Of a DNA stretch of 64,000 nt, positions 1,884-59,627 are shown piece by piece (position 1 is the first letter of the stretch; each line of letters begins with the position of its first letter). The translations under genes were made by a program, and so were the position numbers. The stretch comes from Octopus sinensis (Eukaryota). Below the pieces are notes generated by a model. The model did no database searches, had not been told where the DNA came from, and saw nothing but the letters and a program-made list of their open reading frames with translations. The DNA is taken from positions 28,768,001 to 28,832,000 of the forward strand of contig NC_043006.1 in assembly GCF_006345805.1 (NCBI RefSeq), written 5' to 3'.

Positions 1884-4142
1884 CAGAGCGTCCTCGGTTC
1901 TCGACCATAATTTGTTCTGAAAGTGTGTTCGAAAACGGAATTGTTCGAGAACCAAATCATTTTTCCCATTACAATTAATGTAAAAGGGATTAATTCGTTT
2001 CCAAGCACCGGATGGATGCTTATTTATATGCTTACACTATATATTTTAGTATAAAAACGTTTATTCAAACTGTAAATAACACACAAAAGTGTGTTATTTC
2101 TTAGAAGGTGAGTCCTCTTCCATAAAAACTTCCGGTAACTGTCTTCCGAAGGTTTCTTCCCTTCTCTGTCTCTTTGGTCCAGTAAATCTTTCTCTGTGTT
2201 TTTTCTTTTTTCTTTCAGTAAAAACCTGTCCAATGTTAGTTGTTTTTGCCTGCGTTGTAAAATGTTCCTAAAATGAAACTTGACATTATCATTGAAAAAG
2301 TTTACTGCTCTATTTACTACCACTGTAGCAGAGTGATATTTTCCCACAAAACTTTGCATATCACCCCGTTTAGCACAAATGTCTTTGATTAAAGAACTTG
2401 GGACACCCTCCCTTCCTTCTCCTCAGAAGTCATTTCCTCAGCCAGTCTTTTGCTGTTCATTTTGAAGGTGTACGAGCTCTTCGGTGGTAAGCTCAGTACG
2501 GTTGTCTTCCATCAGCTCTTCAGTATCTTCATTCTCAACATCCATGCCCATAGCTTTCCCCATAGAGACAATATCATCAACAATAGCAATTTCCTCGACA
2601 GCAGCAGTACTTGTAGCTGTCTCAAACCCCTCATAGTCTCGTTCTGGTAGACAGTCTGACCATGCTGAATTCATGGTTCTGAGACTCACTTGGTTCCATG
2701 CATTATCAATAAGATTAACACAATTCAGGATATTGAAATGATTTTTCCAAAATTTTCTGAGGATTAATTGGGTGTTATTAGCGACCTGAAAATACTTTCG
2801 AAGCAGGGCTTTTGTGTAAAGTTTCTTAAAATTTGCAATGACCTGTTGGTCTATTGGTTGTATTTTGAGGAGTTGTGTTAGGTGGCAGGTATTTGACCTG
2901 AGTAAAATCAAACTCTTCAACTAAGTCATCCTCCAAACCTGGAGGAGGAGCGGGAGCGCTGTCTAAGACGAGAATACATTTTAGTGGCAAGTTTTTTCTT
3001 ACAGATATTTTTTAACACTCGGGGCAAAAACTTCATGAATCCACTCAATAAAAAATTGTCTGGTTACCCAAGCTTTCGTATTAGCCCGCCACAAAACAGG
3101 CAATTTACACTTCATAACAGTCTTTCTTTTGAAAACTCTCGGATTATCGGAATGGTAAACAAGCAATGGCTTGACCTTGAAATCGCCACTTGCATTACCG
3201 CATAGCAAAAGAGTGAGTCTATCTTTCATTGACTTATGCCCTGGCAATGCTTCTTCCTCCTTAGTAATATAGGTCCTATTTGGCATACGTTTCCAAAATA
3301 ATCCTGTTTCACCCCCGTTAAACACTTGTTGGGGGAGATAACCTCCTTCCTTTCTCAAGTCACTAAACTCAATCAAATTTCTCAGCCGCTTCCTTGTTTG
3401 AACTCGCCGCCTCTTCATGCCTAATTACACTGTGTATTTGACCTGAGTAAACTCAAACTCTTCTTAAATTTCTCGAACTAGCCTCTGCAAGCTTTGAATT
3501 CAAAAGTGTCTCTTTCAGCATTTGTACCAGGGCAAGAGCATTATAAATTTCTAATGCTTTCTCACAAATAAATGCTTTACTGATACTGTCACCTGCTAAC
3601 TGTTTCTCATTTATAAAAATAAGCAATAACTTTTCCACTTCTTCGAGTACCTTTGGTCTTTGTTTATTAATAACAGTCACTCCTTTTGCAACATCAACTG
3701 CTGTTATCACTTCCCTATTTTTTTAGAATAGTAGATATTGTCGATTTAGGCAGGCCGTACTGCCCAGCGAGATCTAACACACGAACGCCATTTTTTGTGT
3801 TTTGCGATGATTTCTTTCTTCACCGCAATTGTTTTTCTCTCAACTTTTCTTTTTCCTTTACCGGTATCACTGCTAGCTTTCTTTGGAGCCATGACTAAGG
3901 GCTAATGAAAAGAAAAAAAAGGCTCAGTACGATAAAAGTGAAAAGAAAAGCATGGCACAACGCATGAATGTATACAACAGGGCGGTCGACTCAGAAATGA
4001 TACCATTCGGGTTAACTCGGTTCGACAACGTTGTTCGAGTACCGAAATTTCGTTCGATAACCGAGGCATTTTCATCTTGAATTTTCTGTTCAAAAGCCGG
4101 TTTGTTCGATATGTGAGACGTTCGAGAACCAAGGTTGCTCTG
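1884..4142 (-). mobile_element. Full-length decayed Tigger/pogo DNA transposon
   Basis: TIRs CAGAGCGTCCTCGGTTCTCGA / TCGAGAACCAAGGTTGCTCTG with TA TSD; encloses a frameshifted transposase. Confidence 0.92.
2120..3892 (-). pseudogene. Tigger-type (CENP-B HTH + DDE_1) transposase pseudogene
   Basis: Starts MAPKK; motifs EVEKLLLIFINEKQLAGDSIS, QQVFNGGETGLFWKRMPNRTYI, KDRLTLLLCGNASGD, IQPIDQQVIANFKKLY split over ORFs 3453-3710, 2999-3418, 2438-2920, 2024-2359. Confidence 0.92.
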
Positions 4143-4319
4143 TATATATATATATATATATGCAGGAAGTACTCGCGTGTCCGAATGCAGCAAGTTGTTA
4201 GAAAGTAGAAAAATTACTCGGATGTTACCAAAGCACCCTCCAAAAAGAGCAAAGGGAGACCAATCGTCAGAGTTGGAGTTACTGATCTGTTGTAGAAATA
4301 GGCAAGCAATGTACTAAAT

Positions 4320-4736
4320 CAGGGGTCGGCAAAGAGGTCAGTATTGATCCCTGGAAATCACTGGTTATCCGAGAGGTCGATAAACTCCGTTAAGCAATTT
4401 TGAGCTATATTATTGGCGGACTAAATCTGGAAAAGCCAAAACTCACTTATTTTCAGCCAAATATTGATGCAATAACTAATATTCAGCGAACACATATTTT
4501 ATATTAAATATTCTGAGTTTGTTCTTTATCAATTTCGATAAGTATTTTAATTAAATTTCTATAATATTTCTTCTTAGTAAGTAGTAATGACACAAAGAAC
4601 GAAGGAGTTGTTGTATTCAAAAAATCTTTTATTAATTATACTTTTTAATATTATGTTAAAATTTACATGATAGGGAGATACGTTTTCAACAATTCCATGG
4701 AGGGATTAATGATTATAAGACGTTTGCCGATCCCTA
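4320..4736. mobile_element. hAT-type MITE, old
   Basis: TIR pair CAGGGGTCGGCAAA / TTTGCCGATCCCTA; no clean TSD; an inverted fragment of its interior recurs at ~8130-8310. Confidence 0.55.
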
Positions 4737-5774
4737 ATTTAGGCTCTTTTCAATGTCCTTCCTGATCAACAGGTGGATAATGTTATCTGTGGAAGGGACT
4801 ACTAAGTGACTTGGAGAGCTGCCAAATCTCTCTGTTGCCATAGTTTGGAAACGAAGTGGCTAAAGTCCCAAGCTGTCGGTATGCAGGTTTGCAAATACAG
4901 GGTGTTCGAGCTAAATTTGACGAGTTTTTTTATGTCTCCATTTTTCAAAAACTGCTTGATGCATGGGTGAAAAGTCAACGGCGCCAGAGGGCACAAAACT
5001 TAAAGTTGTAGTTGAGAAAAAGTTAGCTGGCATGAAGGACTGAAAGTCATCAAAATATTGGAAAAGAGTTACCTGTATCATGATGATTCGCGCTGGGTAT
5101 CAAAATGCCAACCTCATGGTTGCTGCTCGAAGCTCTGTGAACACTATAAAGTAATAGTTCTTAACCTTGGGGGGAGGGACGTCGATAACTTCGGGGGGGG
5201 GGGGGCAAGCCGTTGAGGAAAAGCAGGAATTTATCTAATTATATTTGTTAATCTCTTAACGAGAGCATAGTCAAATAATGAGAAATTTATGAAAAAATGC
5301 AAAAATATCACCTTATACCTTCAGTTTTCTTATTCTACTATCTTATCATTCTACTAGCTTGCTTTTTCTCTGTTCTTATTGACCCCACTTCACATCCCTC
5401 AAAACCCTCACTAATTCTGAATTGTAACTTTAACATTTGCCTTTATTTTGTAATTTTTTTCGTTACAAGTCTCAGGTTGGTAGATTATAAACTAGTTTGA
5501 TCCACAGTTTTCACATATATGAAATAATGTGATTCTTAAAAATCAAGAGACATGCTGAAACATTATTAAATAATTATAGTAACATACTAAGAAATATTAA
5601 CTTAATTTTTAAAAATTGAAAACTATTTTAAAATTTTAGCAAGAAGGAAAATATGATAAATTTAAAAATAGGAAATAAAACAAAAAATATGTAATAGGTT
5701 CTACTATTGCTCAATTTAATAAAGTTTCAAAAGCAATAAAACCAAAATTTTTTATATTAAATGTTTGTTTAAAA

Positions 5775-9430: not shown

Positions 9431-9555
9431 TTCCCTAACCCTAAAACCCTAAAACCCAAGTCCTAAAACTCTAACCCTAACCCTAAAACCCTAACTCTAA
9501 CCCTAAAACCCTAACCCTAACACCCTAACCCTAGGGTTTTAGGGTTAGGGTTTTA
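9431..9555. repeat. Interstitial telomere-like array, (CCCTAA/CCCTAAAA)n then (TTTTAGGG/TTAGGG)n
   Basis: Direct reading; strand switch at CCCTAGGG (9529-9536). Confidence 0.92.
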
Positions 9556-10060: not shown

Positions 10061-11111
10061 CAGAAGTTCTCAACAAATTTTGGTCGGTGGACCCTTTTCA
10101 TTACTATTTTATTCTTGTGGAGCCCGTAGCCATTCGATGTTTAAAAACTAGCTTCATAAATACTTCTTTCAAAATTCCTATTTTGTTTTTCACATTTGTG
10201 TAGATTGAACTATGTAAAACGTTCGAGAAAGGAACCTAGCTATTTCTTGCAATACATACCAATACAGACCATCTAAAGCAAAATTTTTTTACAGGGCCCT
10301 TAGAATACTATTGCGGATCCCCAACTTGCTATTTTATTGCATGGACCCACCAAAATTTAGATCTTTACCTTTTGACCTACAGATTTAAAAAATAATTTTT
10401 TGTGACTAAACACTTTGAAACTTCGGACACTGGTAGAATATGTCATATAAAACATATTTTACTCTTAGCATTTTTGAGAAAAACTTATATTTACGAAGTT
10501 ATTTCACGTTAAAGTTGTCGTATTTCAGTAATTTCAACCAATCAATGACGTGTATTCAGCTGAATAAAATGTCGGCCGTTGTTTGTCAACAACAACTATC
10601 GGCGGTGTATATTTCATTTGTCACTCTTATTTATGACATCGTTCGTGCGTTTGTACTGGTTTTAAGGTTTTAGGGTTAGGGTTGGGGTTTTAGGGTTAGG
10701 GTGTTAGGGTTAGGGTTTTAGGGTTTTAGGGCTAGGGTTAGGATTAAGGTTTTAGGGTTAGGGTTAGGATTAAGGTTTTAGGGTTAGGGTTAGTGTTGTC
10801 ATAAATAACAGTGACAAACGAAATATACACCGCCGATAGTTGTTGTTGACAAACAACAGCAGTAATTTTATTCAGCTGAATACACGTCATTGATTGGTTG
10901 AAATTACCGAAATACGAGAACTTTAACGTGAAATAACTTCGTAAATATAAGTTTTTCTCAAAAATGCTAAGAGTAAAATATGTTTTATATGACACATTCT
11001 ACCAGTGTCCGAAGTTTGAAAGTGTTTAATTACAAAAAATTATTTTTTAAATCTGTAGGTCAAAAGGTAAAGATCCCAAAATTTTATATGGACCCTGGTT
11101 GAGAACCACTC
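10061..11111. mobile_element. hAT (Charlie-like) MITE hosting a nested insertion
   Basis: Ends CAGAAGTTCTCAAC / GTTGAGAACCACTC; repeated GGACCC subterminal motifs. Confidence 0.65.
10359..11076. mobile_element. Merlin-like foldback MITE (family B): 280-bp TIRs, telomere-like spacer
   Basis: Arms 10359-10638 and 10797-11076; ends AGATCTTTACC / GGTAAAGATCC; perfect 8-bp TSD CAAAATTT; TTAGGG/TTTTAGGG at ~10660-10793. Confidence 0.9.
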
Positions 11112-14223: not shown

Positions 14224-14385
14224 TGGGTTATGATTAGGATTAGAGCTAGGGTTAAAGTTAAGTTTAGGATTTAGGGTTTAAAGTTAGGGCTAGGTTTGGG
14301 TTTAGGGTTCGGGTTGAGGTTAGGATTTAGGGTTAGGGTTAGGGTTTAGGATTAGAGGTTAGGCTTAAGAGTTAGAGTTAGGGTT
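14224..14385. repeat. Degenerate (TTAGGG)n-like tract
   Basis: Direct reading; many variant hexamers. Confidence 0.8.
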
Positions 14386-14488
14386 TTGTAGTTGAGATAA
14401 TCATGTATTTTCTGCGTTAGGTTTGTGAGTTCTATGGTGACTGAATGTAAAGATCTGATTCCGTGTTGTTATTTGGAGAGGGGGGAAG

Positions 14489-19497: not shown

Positions 19498-20297
19498 CGC
19501 AATGGCCCAGTGGTTAGGGCAGCGGACTCGCGGTCGTAGGATCGCGGTTTCGATTCCCTGACCGAGCGTTGTGAGTGTTTATAGGGCGAAAACACCTAAA
19601 GCTCTACGAGGCTCCCACAGGGTGTAGTGGCGAACCCTGCTGTAATATTTCACCACAACTTTCTCTCACTCGCGGTCGTAGGATCGCGGTTTCGATTCTC
19701 TGACCAGGTGTTGTGAGTGTTTATTGAGCGAAAACACCTAAAGCTCTACGAGGCTCCCACAGGGTGTGGTGGCGAACCCTGCTGTAATATTTCACCACAA
19801 CTTTCTCTCACACGCGGTCGTAGGATAGCGGTTTCGATTCCCTGACCAGGTGTTGTGAGTGTTTATTGAGCGAAAACATTTAAAGCTCTGCGAGGCTCCC
19901 ACAGGGTGTGGTGGCGAACCCTGCTGTATTCTTTCACCACAACTTTCTCTCACTCGTGGTCGTAGGATCGCGGTTTCGATTCCCTGACCGGGTGTTGTGA
20001 GTATTTATTGAGCGAAAACATTTAAAGCTCTGCGAGGCTCCCACAGAGTGTGGTGGCGAACCCTGCTGTAATATTTCACCACAACTTTCTCTCACTCTTT
20101 CTTTCTATTTCTGTTGTACCTGTATTTCAAATGGCCAGCCTTGTCACACTCAGCGTCGCGCCGTATCTCCCGAGAACTACGTTAAGGATACACGTGTCTG
20201 TGGAGTGCTCAGCCACTTGCACGTTAATTTCACGAGCAGGCTGTTCCGTTCATTGGATCAACTGGAACCCTCAGCGTCGTAACCGACGGAGTGCCAC
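19495..20297 (+). mobile_element. SINE family S2 with four internal 142-bp tandem units
   Basis: Head GGCGCAATGGCCCAGTGGTTAGGGCAGCGG; units start at 19526, 19668, 19810, 19952. Confidence 0.9.
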
Positions 20298-30607: not shown

Positions 30608-31869
30608 TTGGGTCGGCCAAAAAGTCCGTTCGTTTTTTTAGTATCAACTGTCCGGTCTTCTAATCACTGTTCCGATATTTCTTTTTCTTTAGAAACTGTA
30701 TTCGGTATAACGACCATGGTTACATATCAGTGTGTAACAAGCCTCAAAGGAGAGAGATTGCAGCTTGTTTGATTGCATTTGAGCCTAGACATGGAAGACC
30801 GGACGGAGCACTATTGGCATCTTATGCTTTTTTACTTCAGAAAAGGAAAGAAAGCAACAGAAACTTGCCGAAAGTTATACAATGTGTATGGAGAGATTGC
30901 TGTTTCAGAACGGGTGTGCCAGAAATGGTTTGTTTGATTTCGATCAGCGAATTTTTCAGTAAGAGATACACCTAGCTCTGGCCGGCGAAAAGAAATTGAT
31001 AATGACCAACTGAGAGCTGTAGTCAAACAAGACTGCAGTCTTACGACCAGACAAATATTCTTAACATATCCAAAACAAGTATGGAAAATGAATTGCATAA
31101 ACTTGGTTATGTTTCTAAACTTGATGTTTGGGTTCTCCATAAATTGAAAGAGGGTTTTCATTTGCGATTCCTTAATGAAAAGGGAAAACAACGAACCCTT
31201 TTTGAGAAGAATTGTTACTGGAGATGAAAATGGGTAGTTTACAATAATGTCAAACGAAGAAGATCATGGAAAAAAAGCAGGGGATTCTCCAAAACGAACA
31301 TCTAAAGCAGGTCTTCACCCAAAGAAAGTGCTGTTATCGATATGGTGAGATTGGAAGGGTGTTATCTTTTTTGAATTTCTTCCCTTGAATAAAACCATCA
31401 ATTCAGAGGTTTATTGTGAACAACTGGATAAATTAAACACGGCTCTTCATCAAAAACGACCAGAACTGGTGAATTGCAAAGGCGTTGTTTTCCACCATGA
31501 CAACACAAGGTCACACACTGCTTTGATTACTCGGCAGAAGTTGCTGCAGCTTGAGTGGGAAGTTTTGCCTCACCCTCCGTAATCTCCAGATCTGGTCCCA
31601 TCAGATTTCCATCTGTTTTGGTCACTGCAAAATTCATTGAATGAAAAAAAATAATTTAATTCGTATAAAGACGTGAAAATTTTCTTGGAAACATTTTTTG
31701 CTAAAGAACCTAAATTCTTCGAACAGGGGATTAAAGATCTACCCAACAGGTGGCGAAAGGTTATAGAAGCAAATGGCAACTATTGTATTGATTAAATACA
31801 TTTTTCACAATTGTTTACTTTGTTTTGATTTTCACCTAAAACAACCAACGGACTTTTTGGCCAACCCAA
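30608..31869 (+). mobile_element. Full-length decayed mariner (D,D34D type)
   Basis: TIRs TTGGGTCGGCCAAAAAGTCCGTT / AACGGACTTTTTGGCCAACCCAA with TA TSD; transposase ~30791-31795 with WVLHKL, RIVTGDE, FHHDNTRSH, HPP*SPDLVPSDFHLF; several stops and frameshifts. Confidence 0.93.
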
Positions 31870-32238
31870 TACATACATGTATGCTTCTTACATATATTCT
31901 TTCTATTTTTATTGTTTATAAAGGCATTAGCGTGGCGGTGTAATACGAAGTTTGCTTCCCAAACACAGCAAGGCCACAATCTAATTACTGAAACAGGTAA
32001 AAGATGATAAATTAAAAAAAAAAAGAAAGACATCAATATTAATTTCTGTAGGGTTAAAAATCTACCAACATACAAAGTAGTGCGTACATTTTTATATATA
32101 CACACGTATCGTTTTATATACGCATGTATATATATATGCATACATATATATATGTATGTATGTTTATATATATATATGTGTGTATGTATGTATGTATGTA
32201 TGTATGTATGTATGTATGTATGTATGTATGTATGTATG

Positions 32239-32287
<49 letters not shown>

Positions 32288-32289
<2 letters not shown>

Positions 32290-32910
32290 ATTCTATAATT
32301 ATGAGTAGAATTATAATTAGGGTTCAGCAAAATTTGCTTCCCCACACACCGAAATTTAGAAATAGCAGTTAAACTACTATTTTACTACCATAAGAAAATC
32401 TCCCAGACAGCAATACTCAACAACACACGCAGGTAAAGAGAAAAAATAGCGAATCCCCCCGGCTCTGATTAACTGTATACGCGTTTCGGAGTTAGAGAGA
32501 TGTGAAAAAAATGTAAAATCATATTTCTACTCTCTCATTCTCCTCTTCAGTACAGTAATTCAAGATTTTAAATTTGGGAGCACTGAAAATTAACATACTT
32601 ATCTGATCAAGCGACATCAGACAACGTATATCCAACGACCAGTACTTCCGAATTCAAACAGACAAATGAGATTACGTATTCCTCCCCACTCACCCATGTG
32701 TGCCAACAAGTAAAATTCTGCAGAAAACTGAAGTTTACTATCAGAGAGAGGATTATATTATCCATAATAATAAAGGGTAAAATTGATTAATCAATTAATA
32801 ATTAATAATTTTACCAAGTAGTTCGGTATGTTAAAAGAACCATTATCGGTAAACTTATACAAAAAAATTCTATAATTATGAATATAATTATAATTAGAGT
32901 TCAGCAAAAT
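32288..32910 (-). mobile_element. Non-coding Penelope-LTR/retrozyme-like unit (577 bp plus 46-bp terminal repeat)
   Basis: Direct repeat AAATTCTATAATTATGA..TTCAGCAAAAT at 32288-32333 and 32865-32910; contains a hammerhead. Confidence 0.6.
32472..32556 (-). ncRNA. Minimal type I hammerhead ribozyme, core apparently intact
   Basis: Minus strand ACUGUA CUGAAGA GGAG[..]CUCC GAAA CGCG UA^ UACAGU: perfect 6-bp stem I, G-C closed stem II, palindromic CGCG loop III, GUA site. Confidence 0.8.
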
Positions 32911-33462
32911 GTGGTGGGGTGCCTATATTTGTCCACCACCACCGTTTGACAACCGGTGTGGGTGTGTTTATGTCTCCATAACTTAGCGGTTCGGAGGAAA
33001 AGGCCGATAGAATAAGTACTAGGATAAAAGATAAGCCCTGTGGTCGATTTGTTCGACTAAAATCTTTGAAGGCGGTGCTCCAGCATGGCTGCAGTCAGAT
33101 GACTGAAACAAAAGAATACACGCGCGCGTGCGTAAGTATGTATGTATGTATGTATGTATGTATGTATGTATGTATGTATGTATGTATGTATGTATGTCTG
33201 TATGTATGTATCAGCAAAATGTTTAAAATATGTTTAAGTTTCAAGAAAACCCAGAGTTGGGCGTCTTCAAAGACGTGTCGTTTCTAATTTTATTTGAAGG
33301 AGCTATGATTGGGGAAGCAAGATTATAATAAGTTTCTATAATATTTTCCTAAATTTTTAATTCTAAAGCAGTTTTTCTTTTGTAAACATTCGTGCGATTT
33401 ACAGCAGTATCTTTTAAATCTATCTCCATTGCATCAAAAAGTTAACAAAACGGGAACCAGTG

Positions 33463-52895: not shown

Positions 52896-53349
52896 CAATA
52901 ATATACATACATGTATAACATATTATGCTTTACATATAAGATATTAAATATATTAATATATAAGGATACCAGTAATTATTACAAAATAACATACATGAAT
53001 ATATATATGCACACGGAAAATATAGGGTAGCGAGTTTTTTTTTAGAAATTTCACTACCAGTGGCCTAGCATGTATATAAAGTCAATAGACAATATATTCT
53101 CATTGTGTACATTTAAACACAAGAGAAACAGCCTTCAACAGGCAGTTTTACCAGCTAGAAAAAGTAGTTAAAATGACCAAAACCACATTTAAGAGCAATT
53201 TTTAAAAGGAATGAAAAATAAAAACTTTTACCTTATTTTATTCCGGTCAAACCTAGGTTTCAAATTTTTTTTACCAAGTAAAATAATTTGCTAGGCGAAA
53301 TTCTCATCAGTGACTTCACCATAACTAACATATATGTGTGTATGTGTGT

Positions 53350-58556: not shown

Positions 58557-58849
58557 TAAATACTAAACAATAAACTAATATATAATTCGTTTTGGGAGCG
58601 ATGAAACTCGAAGGAGATAAAGCTATAAATAATAAGATTGGATTAAAAACCGTTCGGATAGAAAATGTTGAAGACTTTTTTAAACGAAGTTTTATCTACT
58701 TCGAATTTCATTGTTCCAAAAAGAATTATTCCATGTCACGAGAAGTTTCAAAATTCTTATGACTCGAACAAAAATATAAATGTAATAACAAAGACGGCCA
58801 TTGCACTTGTAGCATTTGGTAAAGTCCTGATTTATGCATACACATATAT

Positions 58850-59627
58850 ATTTCTTTATTACCCACGAGGGGCTAAACATAGAGGGGACAATCAAGGACA
58901 GACAAAGGGATTAAGTCGATTACATCGACCCCAGTGCGAAACTAGTACTTTATTTATCGAACCCGAAAAGCTGAAAGGCAAAGTTGACCTCGGCGGAATT
59001 TGAACTCGGAACGTAACGACAGACGAAATACCTATTCCTTTATAACCCACAAGGAGCTAAACATAGAAGGGACAAACAGGAACAGAAAAACGGATTAAGT
59101 CGATTACATCGATCCCAGTGTGTAACTGGTACTTAATTTATCGACCCCGAAAAGAGGAAAGGCAAAGTCGACCTCGGCGGAATTCGAACTCAGAACGTAA
59201 CGGCAGACGAAATACCTATTTCTTTATTACCCGTAAGGGGCTAAACACAGAGAGGACAACAAAGGACAGACAAAGGGATTAAGTCGATTATATCGACCCC
59301 AGTGCGTAACTGATACTTAATTTATCGACCCCGAAAGGATGAAAGGCAAAGTCGACCTAGGCGGAATTTGAAATCAGAACGTAACGACAGACTAAATACC
59401 TATTTCTTTATAACCCACAATGGGCTAAACACAGAGGGGACAAACAAGGGCAGACATAAGTATTAAGTCGATTACATCGATCCCAGAGCGTAACTGGTAC
59501 TTAATTTATCGACCCCGAAAGGATGAAAGGCAAAGTCGACCTCGGCGGAATTCGAACTCAGAACGTAACGACAGACGAAATACCGCTAAGCATTTCGCCC
59601 GGCGTGCTAACGTTTCTGCCAGCTCGC
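58850..59627 (-). mobile_element. S3 SINE tetramer (~184-bp units)
   Basis: Units start at ~58851, 59035, 59218, 59402; one head at the right end. Confidence 0.9.

What the first reader, a model, noticed from the sequence alone, without database searches (positions are those of the whole stretch)
32288..32910. Apparently intact hammerhead in a 577-bp terminally redundant unit (retrozyme-like)
Seen: all core nucleotides on the minus strand (CUGAAGA, GAAA, GUA), a perfect 6-bp stem I, an extended stem II and a palindromic CGCG loop III; predicted cut between 32478 and 32477. The unit has no recognisable ORF and ends by repeating its first 46 bp. Known: minimal type I hammerheads with palindromic loop III occur in Penelope-like LTRs and are proposed to cleave as dimers; tandem hammerhead repeats (non-LTR retrozymes) yield circular RNAs. 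Inference: slightly more than one unit is what reverse transcription of a circular or multimeric RNA would leave. This is the best candidate here for an undescribed cephalopod ribozyme/circRNA element family, though it may be an ordinary PLE LTR.
Basis: partly seen in the sequence, partly recalled or inferred. Interest (0 to 1): 0.75.

Follow-up and report, generated by a model that had tools for sequence, protein, structure and literature searches.

The report
Hammerhead-bearing passenger of Penelope retrotransposons
This is one old copy of a protein-free, 577-base jumping repeat that carries a predicted self-cutting RNA motif and is likely pasted into TA-rich DNA by enzymes borrowed from Penelope retrotransposons; the kind is already known, but its copies show that the two ends of one insertion nearly always stop at two different fixed points.

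Summary
A type I hammerhead lies on the minus strand (32556-32472) and the ends repeat with period 577 (43 of 46 identical). The unit is one copy of a dispersed, ORF-less family (596 exact hits of one 25-mer). The 46-bp overlap is incidental: overlaps run 9-252 bp. Ends are not freely permuted. 3' ends cluster at two sites about 100-110 nt apart (231 of 296 arms), 5' ends are truncated, and 86 of 210 insertions are head-to-head. In 43 of 49 classifiable head-to-head insertions the two arms end at different sites. These are Penelope (PLE) footprints; coding PLEs in this genome show them too, with a 40-bp tail. The RNA folds into a branched rod (z -7.3) that joins the cut ends. No tandem arrays, no autonomous partner and no usable RNA evidence were found. 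Verdict: new member of a known kind (non-autonomous PLE / non-LTR retrozyme); a circular template is about an even bet. The scan reported similar families before on other DNA.

The parts
32288..32864 (-). One full 577-bp unit of the ORF-less element (unit positions u47 to u46, where u = 32911 minus window position); its 3' end at 32288 is the short fixed end
32865..32910 (-). 5'-truncated second copy in partial tandem (minimal pseudo-LTR), 43 of 46 identical to 32288-32333
32472..32556 (-). Type I hammerhead: 6-bp stem I, CUGAAGA, 56-nt stem II, GAAA, self-complementary ACGCGU (1-bp stem III as a monomer), predicted cut 32478|32477
32399..32468 (-). Arm of the predicted long RNA rod just 3' of the cut site (u443-512)
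32663..32749 (-). Partner arm of the predicted rod (u162-248)
32567..32658 (-). Predicted long side hairpin (u253-344); one pair is U-A in 20 and C-G in 17 of 40 copies
32754..32864 (-). Tail segment (u47-157): the stretch between the short and the long fixed 3' ends; other copies carry it as an optional 3' extension
32127..32287 (.). (TA)n/(TATG)n microsatellite at the 3' junction (target site, host DNA)

Best explanation
The unit is a copy of a non-coding, hammerhead-bearing repeat family that is likely a non-autonomous passenger of endonuclease-bearing Penelope-like elements (a non-LTR retrozyme in the published sense), likely copied from a more-than-unit, probably circular RNA. Shown from sequence: an ORF-less 577-bp unit, two fixed 3' ends about 100-110 nt apart, variable 5' truncation, partial tandems and head-to-head arms, microsatellite targets. 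Predicted: the minus-strand RNA folds into a branched rod with the hammerhead at one end, and the hammerhead would cut efficiently only as a dimer through ACGCGU. Inferred from published PLE biochemistry (PMC11167929): a PLE RT/GIY-YIG protein supplied in trans cuts both strands of AT-rich DNA and starts reverse transcription inside the RNA at either site. Each DNA end likely primes its own cDNA, usually one from each site, which gives two arms of unequal 3' end; copying that runs past one unit gives the terminal overlap, here 46 bp. I put membership of the non-autonomous PLE kind at about 0.85 and the circular template at about an even bet or slightly better.
For: Family and ends: 89 matches from 40 scored of 2774 candidates; 52, 145 and 596 exact pattern hits with 0 in reversed controls. 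Of 296 arms in 210 distinct insertions, 118 end at u37-61, 113 at u138-163 and 65 elsewhere; 86 insertions are head-to-head. 43 of 49 with both ends classifiable pair one short with one long end (p 3e-8 against 0.5; 37 of 86 set aside); in the set not chosen for length 20 of 21 (19 of 40 set aside). 194 of 231 fixed ends have a microsatellite within 40 nt against 19% background. Helper: GIY-YIG gave 5029 candidates, 150 scored; 775-781-aa frames match RVT_1 (just under the cut-off) and GIY-YIG; that coding family ends at two points 40 nt apart, next to (TA)n. 10 of 189 element loci hold a PLE ORF fragment; in 4 (L020, L039, L059, L276) PLE sequence abuts the element. RNA structure: -173.2 kcal/mol, z -7.31, against z -3.46 for the other strand and z +0.4 to -3.2 for four PLE or transposon control stretches on both strands. 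On 40 copies 90.9% of cells pair and 60 cells change on both sides against 27.7 in shuffles. The hammerhead core is intact in 60 of 99 arms; the stem II pair is A-U in 69 and G-C in 18 with 4 mismatched; core position 7 varies freely. Template: 30 arms exceed one unit and 2 (L017, L020) cross the cut site twice. Rare variants are shared between the two laps of one copy in 14 of 111 cases and between inverted arms in 63 of 329, against 3% for random pairs. The fold closes stem I between the two cut ends of a monomer.
Against: A circle made by two cuts needs two hammerheads in tandem, yet only 2 of 296 arms cross the cut site twice, and the upstream motif is truncated in L017 and deleted in stem II in L020. 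No ends collect at the cut: 2 of 296 3' ends and 4 of 296 5' ends lie near it, and the 5' truncation rate shows no step there (0.20 just before, 0.30 just after). The predicted fold is equally possible in a linear RNA (-167.7 to -174.4 for 25 permutations). RNAalifold did not recover the rod (-12.8 kcal/mol, other pairings), and the number of pairs with two-sided change was not above shuffles (21 against 17.0, 53 of 500). Within-copy identity (91.0%) is only slightly above between-copy identity (89.4%). No coding PLE with a homologous pLTR was found among the GIY-YIG loci examined. The tail is about three times the 30-40 bp described for PLEs. PLE neighbours may partly reflect a shared taste for (TA)n. 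For the anole PLE, hammerhead cleavage was dispensable in vitro (PMC11167929), and 8 of 9 Xenopus retrozyme dimers did not cleave (bioRxiv 2026.07.22.740005). Copies are old (nearest-neighbour identity median 90.7%).
Confidence: 0.55

Rival explanations
1. The same non-autonomous PLE passenger, but copied only from linear, terminally redundant read-through transcripts of partial-tandem masters. The hammerhead stays uncut or is dispensable, and the overlap is regenerated by re-priming on the RNA; no circle exists.
For: No ends at the cut site and no truncation step there. No full dimers among 210 insertions. 17 of 27 arms longer than one unit start at u455-576, downstream of the upstream cut site, and only 2 start beyond it. 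Unprocessed RNA was the dominant template for the anole PLE (PMC11167929).
Against: Two arms cross the cut site twice, and both laps share variants. By analogy with the anole PLE, the protein would need element sequence 3' of the long start site, which single genomic copies ending at that site lack (inference). The fold and core appear maintained between subfamilies.
Confidence: 0.3
2. The copies are truncated 3' ends (solo pLTRs) of an autonomous PLE that I did not find.
For: The footprints are identical to those of coding PLEs. Only a small part of 5029 GIY-YIG candidates was inspected.
Against: Copies read backwards return to their own end after 577 bp (30 arms) instead of entering an ORF. 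Flanks beyond the unit are not shared among the first 30 loci. No PLE protein match lies inside the unit (best tblastn E 0.087). PLE fragments next to copies differ in family and orientation.
Confidence: 0.1
3. The 46-bp repeat is a long target-site duplication of host DNA and the hammerhead is a chance match.
For: The repeat is AT-rich and Rfam does not call a hammerhead.
Against: The same 46 bp ends or lies inside copies at unrelated sites. The motif is absent from 30 shuffles, is kept in 60 of 99 arms and shows a compensatory pair.
Confidence: 0.01

Closest known systems
Metazoan non-LTR retrozymes (PMC7229834, passages read; bioRxiv 10.64898/2026.07.22.740005, parts 1-3 of 5 read)
   Same: ORF-less, low GC (33%), one type I hammerhead per unit, unit length inside the reported 51-972 bp range, co-occurs with PLEs, many monomer copies.
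   Different: No tandem arrays found here (longest 829 bp); head-to-head arms and two fixed 3' ends dominate; no circRNA or cleavage shown; longer than the 220-390-nt coral, mussel and axolotl units.
Insertions of endonuclease-bearing Penelope-like elements: pLTR, inverted 5' copy, tail (PMC8557442 and PMC8969392, passages read)
   Same: 5' truncation, partial tandem, inverted 5'-truncated copy, optional 3' extension usually at one end only, microsatellite targeting, no TSD seen.
   Different: No ORF; the tail is about 100-110 bp instead of 30-40 bp; no homologous autonomous element found.
Minimal and dimer-type hammerheads in PLE pLTRs (PMC4209133, parts 1-2 of 4 read)
   Same: Type I topology, tiny palindromic stem/loop III, enlarged stem II, G10.1-C11.1 pair in this copy.
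   Different: Stem II is much longer (56 nt against 7-8 bp), and the motif is embedded in a predicted unit-length rod.
Anolis Poseidon (PAc) in vitro mechanism (PMC11167929, parts 1-2 of 4 read)
   Same: Two internal start sites that define the tail, AT-rich targets, both strands cut and extended, no ends at the hammerhead cut.
   Different: PAc showed no difference in start site between strands in vitro; here the two arms of one insertion use different sites in 43 of 49 cases.

Membership tests
Type I hammerhead ribozyme | Conserved core CUGANGA, GAAA, UH with stems I and II | tested here: met
   intact in 60 of 99 arms and a compensatory stem II pair
Type I hammerhead ribozyme | Self-cleavage at the predicted site | not testable with these tools
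   needs in vitro assay; ACGCGU duplex predicted at -7.5 kcal/mol
Type I hammerhead ribozyme | Match to an Rfam hammerhead model | tested here: not met
   no hammerhead family among 8 matches at E<=10; the long stem II may be the cause (inference)
Non-LTR retrozyme | Non-coding unit with one type I hammerhead, low GC | tested here: met
Non-LTR retrozyme | Tandem dimers or multimers with complete hammerheads (the 'active' definition of the 2026 preprint) | tested here: inconclusive
   0 full dimers among 210 insertions; 2 arms cross the cut twice; L020 has two cores, one with a shortened stem II; only a fraction of the copies was sampled
Non-LTR retrozyme | Expressed linear and circular monomer RNA | not testable with these tools
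   only contigs of runs guessed to be RNA were available
PLE-type insertion | 5' truncation with partial tandem (pLTR) | tested here: met
   30 of 296 arms exceed one unit by 9-252 bp
PLE-type insertion | Inverted 5'-truncated copy adjacent to the 5' end | tested here: met
   86 of 210 insertions
PLE-type insertion | Optional 3' tail from two start sites, usually at one end | tested here: met
   118 short and 113 long ends; 43 of 49 mixed pairs; length about 100-110 bp, not the 30-40 bp published
PLE-type insertion | AT-rich or microsatellite target | tested here: met
   194 of 231 against 19% background
Autonomous PLE | RT plus GIY-YIG ORF within the element | tested here: not met
   longest frames 59 and 67 aa; no protein match
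Non-autonomous derivative of a named PLE | Sequence homology to the pLTR of an autonomous partner | tested here: inconclusive
   none among loci L061-L130, a small sample of 5029 candidates

The most novel reading that the evidence does not exclude
A viroid-like, rod-shaped 577-nt circular RNA that parasitises Penelope enzymes, in which a dimeric enzyme copies the RNA from two structurally fixed start sites, one for each broken DNA end. This would explain the one-sided PLE tail as an obligatory division of labour between two subunits and give a small non-coding substrate for testing it.
Probability: 0.3. Interest if true: 0.6.

Novelty: new member of a known kind. Interest (0 to 1): 0.36.

Why it matters
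Non-autonomous hammerhead elements tied to PLEs are known, so the family itself mainly adds a host lineage and a repeat annotation. What it adds is a count. With hundreds of short copies, the rule that the two arms of one insertion end at different fixed sites (43 of 49) can be measured, whereas the literature I read says only that the tail is often at one end. It constrains the open question of how PLEs build tandem and inverted ends, and whether the hammerhead and a circle take part. The strongly folded unit is a compact candidate substrate for the existing in vitro PLE assay.

Tried and rejected
Rfam: no hammerhead call; whole-window hits were microsatellite matches to miRNA families below their gathering scores. 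Autonomous partner: unit against 50 stretches L061-L110 gave only inserted copies; no unit match was listed for 20 more GIY-YIG stretches L111-L130; sensitive alignment to 7 other PLE or hammerhead stretches gave one weak score (L098 family, 124 against 90.6 +/- 9.3). A Pfam accession recalled from memory for the PLE RT tail was not in the library. Wall of 5' ends at the cut site: suggested by the length-selected set, not seen in the 85 arms of the unselected set; the highest early truncation rate (0.46) is at u489-544, at the entry to the predicted rod. RNAalifold did not give the rod. Expression: no RNA holder listed; contigs of 4 runs guessed to be RNA cover parts of the unit but mix many copies and cannot show ends, strand or circles, so they count neither way. 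Long TSD: rejected. ORF on the circle: none over 67 aa. Sequence look-up of earlier scan notes: nothing.

Full report
Observation. On the minus strand the motif reads ACUGUA CUGAAGA [56-nt stem II] GAAA CGCG U A UACAGU, from 32556 to 32472, with the predicted cut at 32478|32477. The first and last 46 bp match at 43 positions at offset 577. My descriptor found two motifs in the window and none in 30 shuffles. Rfam does not call it. No frame exceeds 67 aa, even across the junction. I number the unit u = 32911 minus window position, so the cut follows u433.

Family. The own genome holds many copies: 89 matches from 40 scored of 2774 candidates, and 52, 145 and 596 exact hits for three motifs with 0 in reversed controls. 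Several thousand fragments are likely, as these counts are lower bounds. I mapped all fetched loci on the unit and kept 210 distinct insertions with 296 arms, after removing duplicates and arms near locus edges. The sample mixes searches: the first favours long copies, the motif searches do not. Copies are old, with a median nearest-neighbour identity of 90.7% among 82 long arms.

Ends. 118 arms end at u37-61 and 113 at u138-163; 65 end elsewhere. 194 of the 231 fixed ends have a microsatellite within 40 nt (background 19%). 5' ends are scattered, with a truncation rate of about 0.15-0.45 per 55 nt and no step at the cut site. Thirty arms exceed one unit, by 9-252 bp, and the longest is 829 bp. 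The window copy is therefore one unit (32864-32288) preceded by a 46-bp truncated second copy. The overlap is neither a TSD nor a fixed feature, and the ends are not freely permuted. 86 insertions are head-to-head. Where both 3' ends could be classed, 43 of 49 pair a short with a long end (5 short-short, 1 long-long; 37 set aside). In the set not chosen for length the figure is 20 of 21 (19 of 40 set aside).

Link to Penelope-like elements. These are the footprints described for endonuclease-bearing PLEs: partial tandems, an inverted 5'-truncated copy, a tail often at one end only, and microsatellite bias (PMC8557442, passages; PMC8969392, passages). The genome has many PLEs, with 775-781-aa RT plus GIY-YIG frames. 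One coding family ends at two points 40 nt apart beside (TA)n. Ten of 189 element loci contain a PLE ORF fragment. In four, PLE sequence abuts the element: same strand in L020 and L276, head-to-head in L039 and L059. This suggests shared machinery, though shared targets could explain some. I found no coding PLE whose pLTR is homologous to the unit, in a small sample.

RNA structure. The minus-strand unit folds at -173.2 kcal/mol, z -7.31, and the other strand at z -3.46. Four control stretches gave +0.4 to -3.2; a sister hammerhead family gave -6.6 and -6.5 on the two strands. The predicted circle is a branched rod in which u443-512 pairs with u162-248 and stem I joins the two cut ends. On 40 copies 90.9% of cells pair and 60 cells change on both sides (shuffles 27.7); examples are U-A 20 / C-G 17 in the side hairpin and A-U 26 / G-C 9 in stem II. 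Against this, the number of such pairs is not above shuffles (21 against 17.0), the structure came from one of the rows, related copies inflate cell counts, and RNAalifold did not recover the rod. The core is intact in 60 of 99 arms, and 47 also keep ACGCGU and at least 5 pairs of stem I.

Mechanism. For the anole PLE, the purified protein cuts both strands of AT-rich DNA, is predicted to be a dimer, starts reverse transcription at two internal RNA sites that define the tail, and does not need hammerhead cleavage (PMC11167929, parts 1-2 of 4). Applied here by inference: a borrowed PLE protein opens a TA-rich site, each DNA end primes a cDNA on the folded RNA, usually one from each start site, and copying stops early or, rarely, runs past one unit. 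Rare variants shared between laps (14 of 111) and between arms (63 of 329; random 3%) fit copying of both from the same or a closely related template. Whether the template is a circle is open. For: two arms cross the cut site twice, the fold joins the cut ends, and single copies lack element sequence 3' of the long start site. Against: full dimers are absent from the sample, ends ignore the cut site, and the fold is equally stable in linear permutations. A circular template for more-than-unit copying was proposed in PMC4209133 (parts 1-2 of 4).

Comparison and novelty. It works like a metazoan non-LTR retrozyme (PMC7229834, passages), which a 2026 preprint derives from PLE pLTRs (10.64898/2026.07.22.740005, parts 1-3 of 5; its supplements are closed). 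It meets the sequence features, but the tandem-array and circRNA features are unshown. Literature searches listed no description of such a family in cephalopods. A recent octopus repeat annotation has no occurrence of 'ribozyme' or 'retrozyme' in its main text (PMC13282606, passages), but I did not see its repeat library, which may hold the family unlabelled. Earlier scan notes describe similar families on other DNA; I read them after forming my reading and do not count them as support.

Verdict. A real feature and a new member of a known kind. Its two modest additions are a tail of about 100-110 bp and a measured short-long pairing of insertion ends. Interest 0.36.

Noticed in passing
window 53246-53314, minus strand: A second type I hammerhead-like motif (4-bp stem I, CUGAUGA, GAAA, palindromic CCUAGG loop region, UU at the cut) from an unrelated family.
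   Followed up: partly
L068:2362, L092:5663 (+): Coding PLE family with a U3-A8 hammerhead core variant (UUGAUAA ... GAAA CAUG UA) about 570 nt after the ORF.
   Followed up: no
L179 about 5240-5290 and L079 (+): PLE 3' end with an apparent A3-U8 core variant (AUGAAUA ... GAAA CCGG UC).
   Followed up: no
L095:1174-2613 and 2532-4877 (+); also L099, L107: A young PLE family has a 479-aa frame upstream of and overlapping the 781-aa RT/GIY-YIG frame; it has no convincing Pfam match.
   Followed up: partly
L098:6397-7513: Sister ORF-less hammerhead family, period about 535 bp, head-to-head arms whose 3' ends differ by about 111 nt, fold z about -6.6; weak similarity to this unit.
   Followed up: partly
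L098:851 and L110:7620 (+): Two more hammerhead motifs with long stem II and palindromic loop III, from other families.
   Followed up: no
window 9433-9533, 10658-10797, 14225-14386; inverted arms 10360-10638 and 10797-11075: Degenerate TTAGGG-like arrays, one between 279-bp inverted arms.
   Followed up: no
window 30664-31795 (+): Broken transposase frames directly beside the 3' microsatellite; they look mariner-like by recall, not searched.
   Followed up: no
window 32911-33110: The 5' flank is a very abundant interspersed repeat: laid depth at 32956-32982 is ten or more times the element's highest bin; SINE-like by inference.
   Followed up: no
window 58849-59584 and 19526-20097: Tandem arrays of 184-bp (4.0 copies) and 142-bp (4.0 copies) units; the 184-bp family recurs elsewhere in the window.
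   Followed up: no
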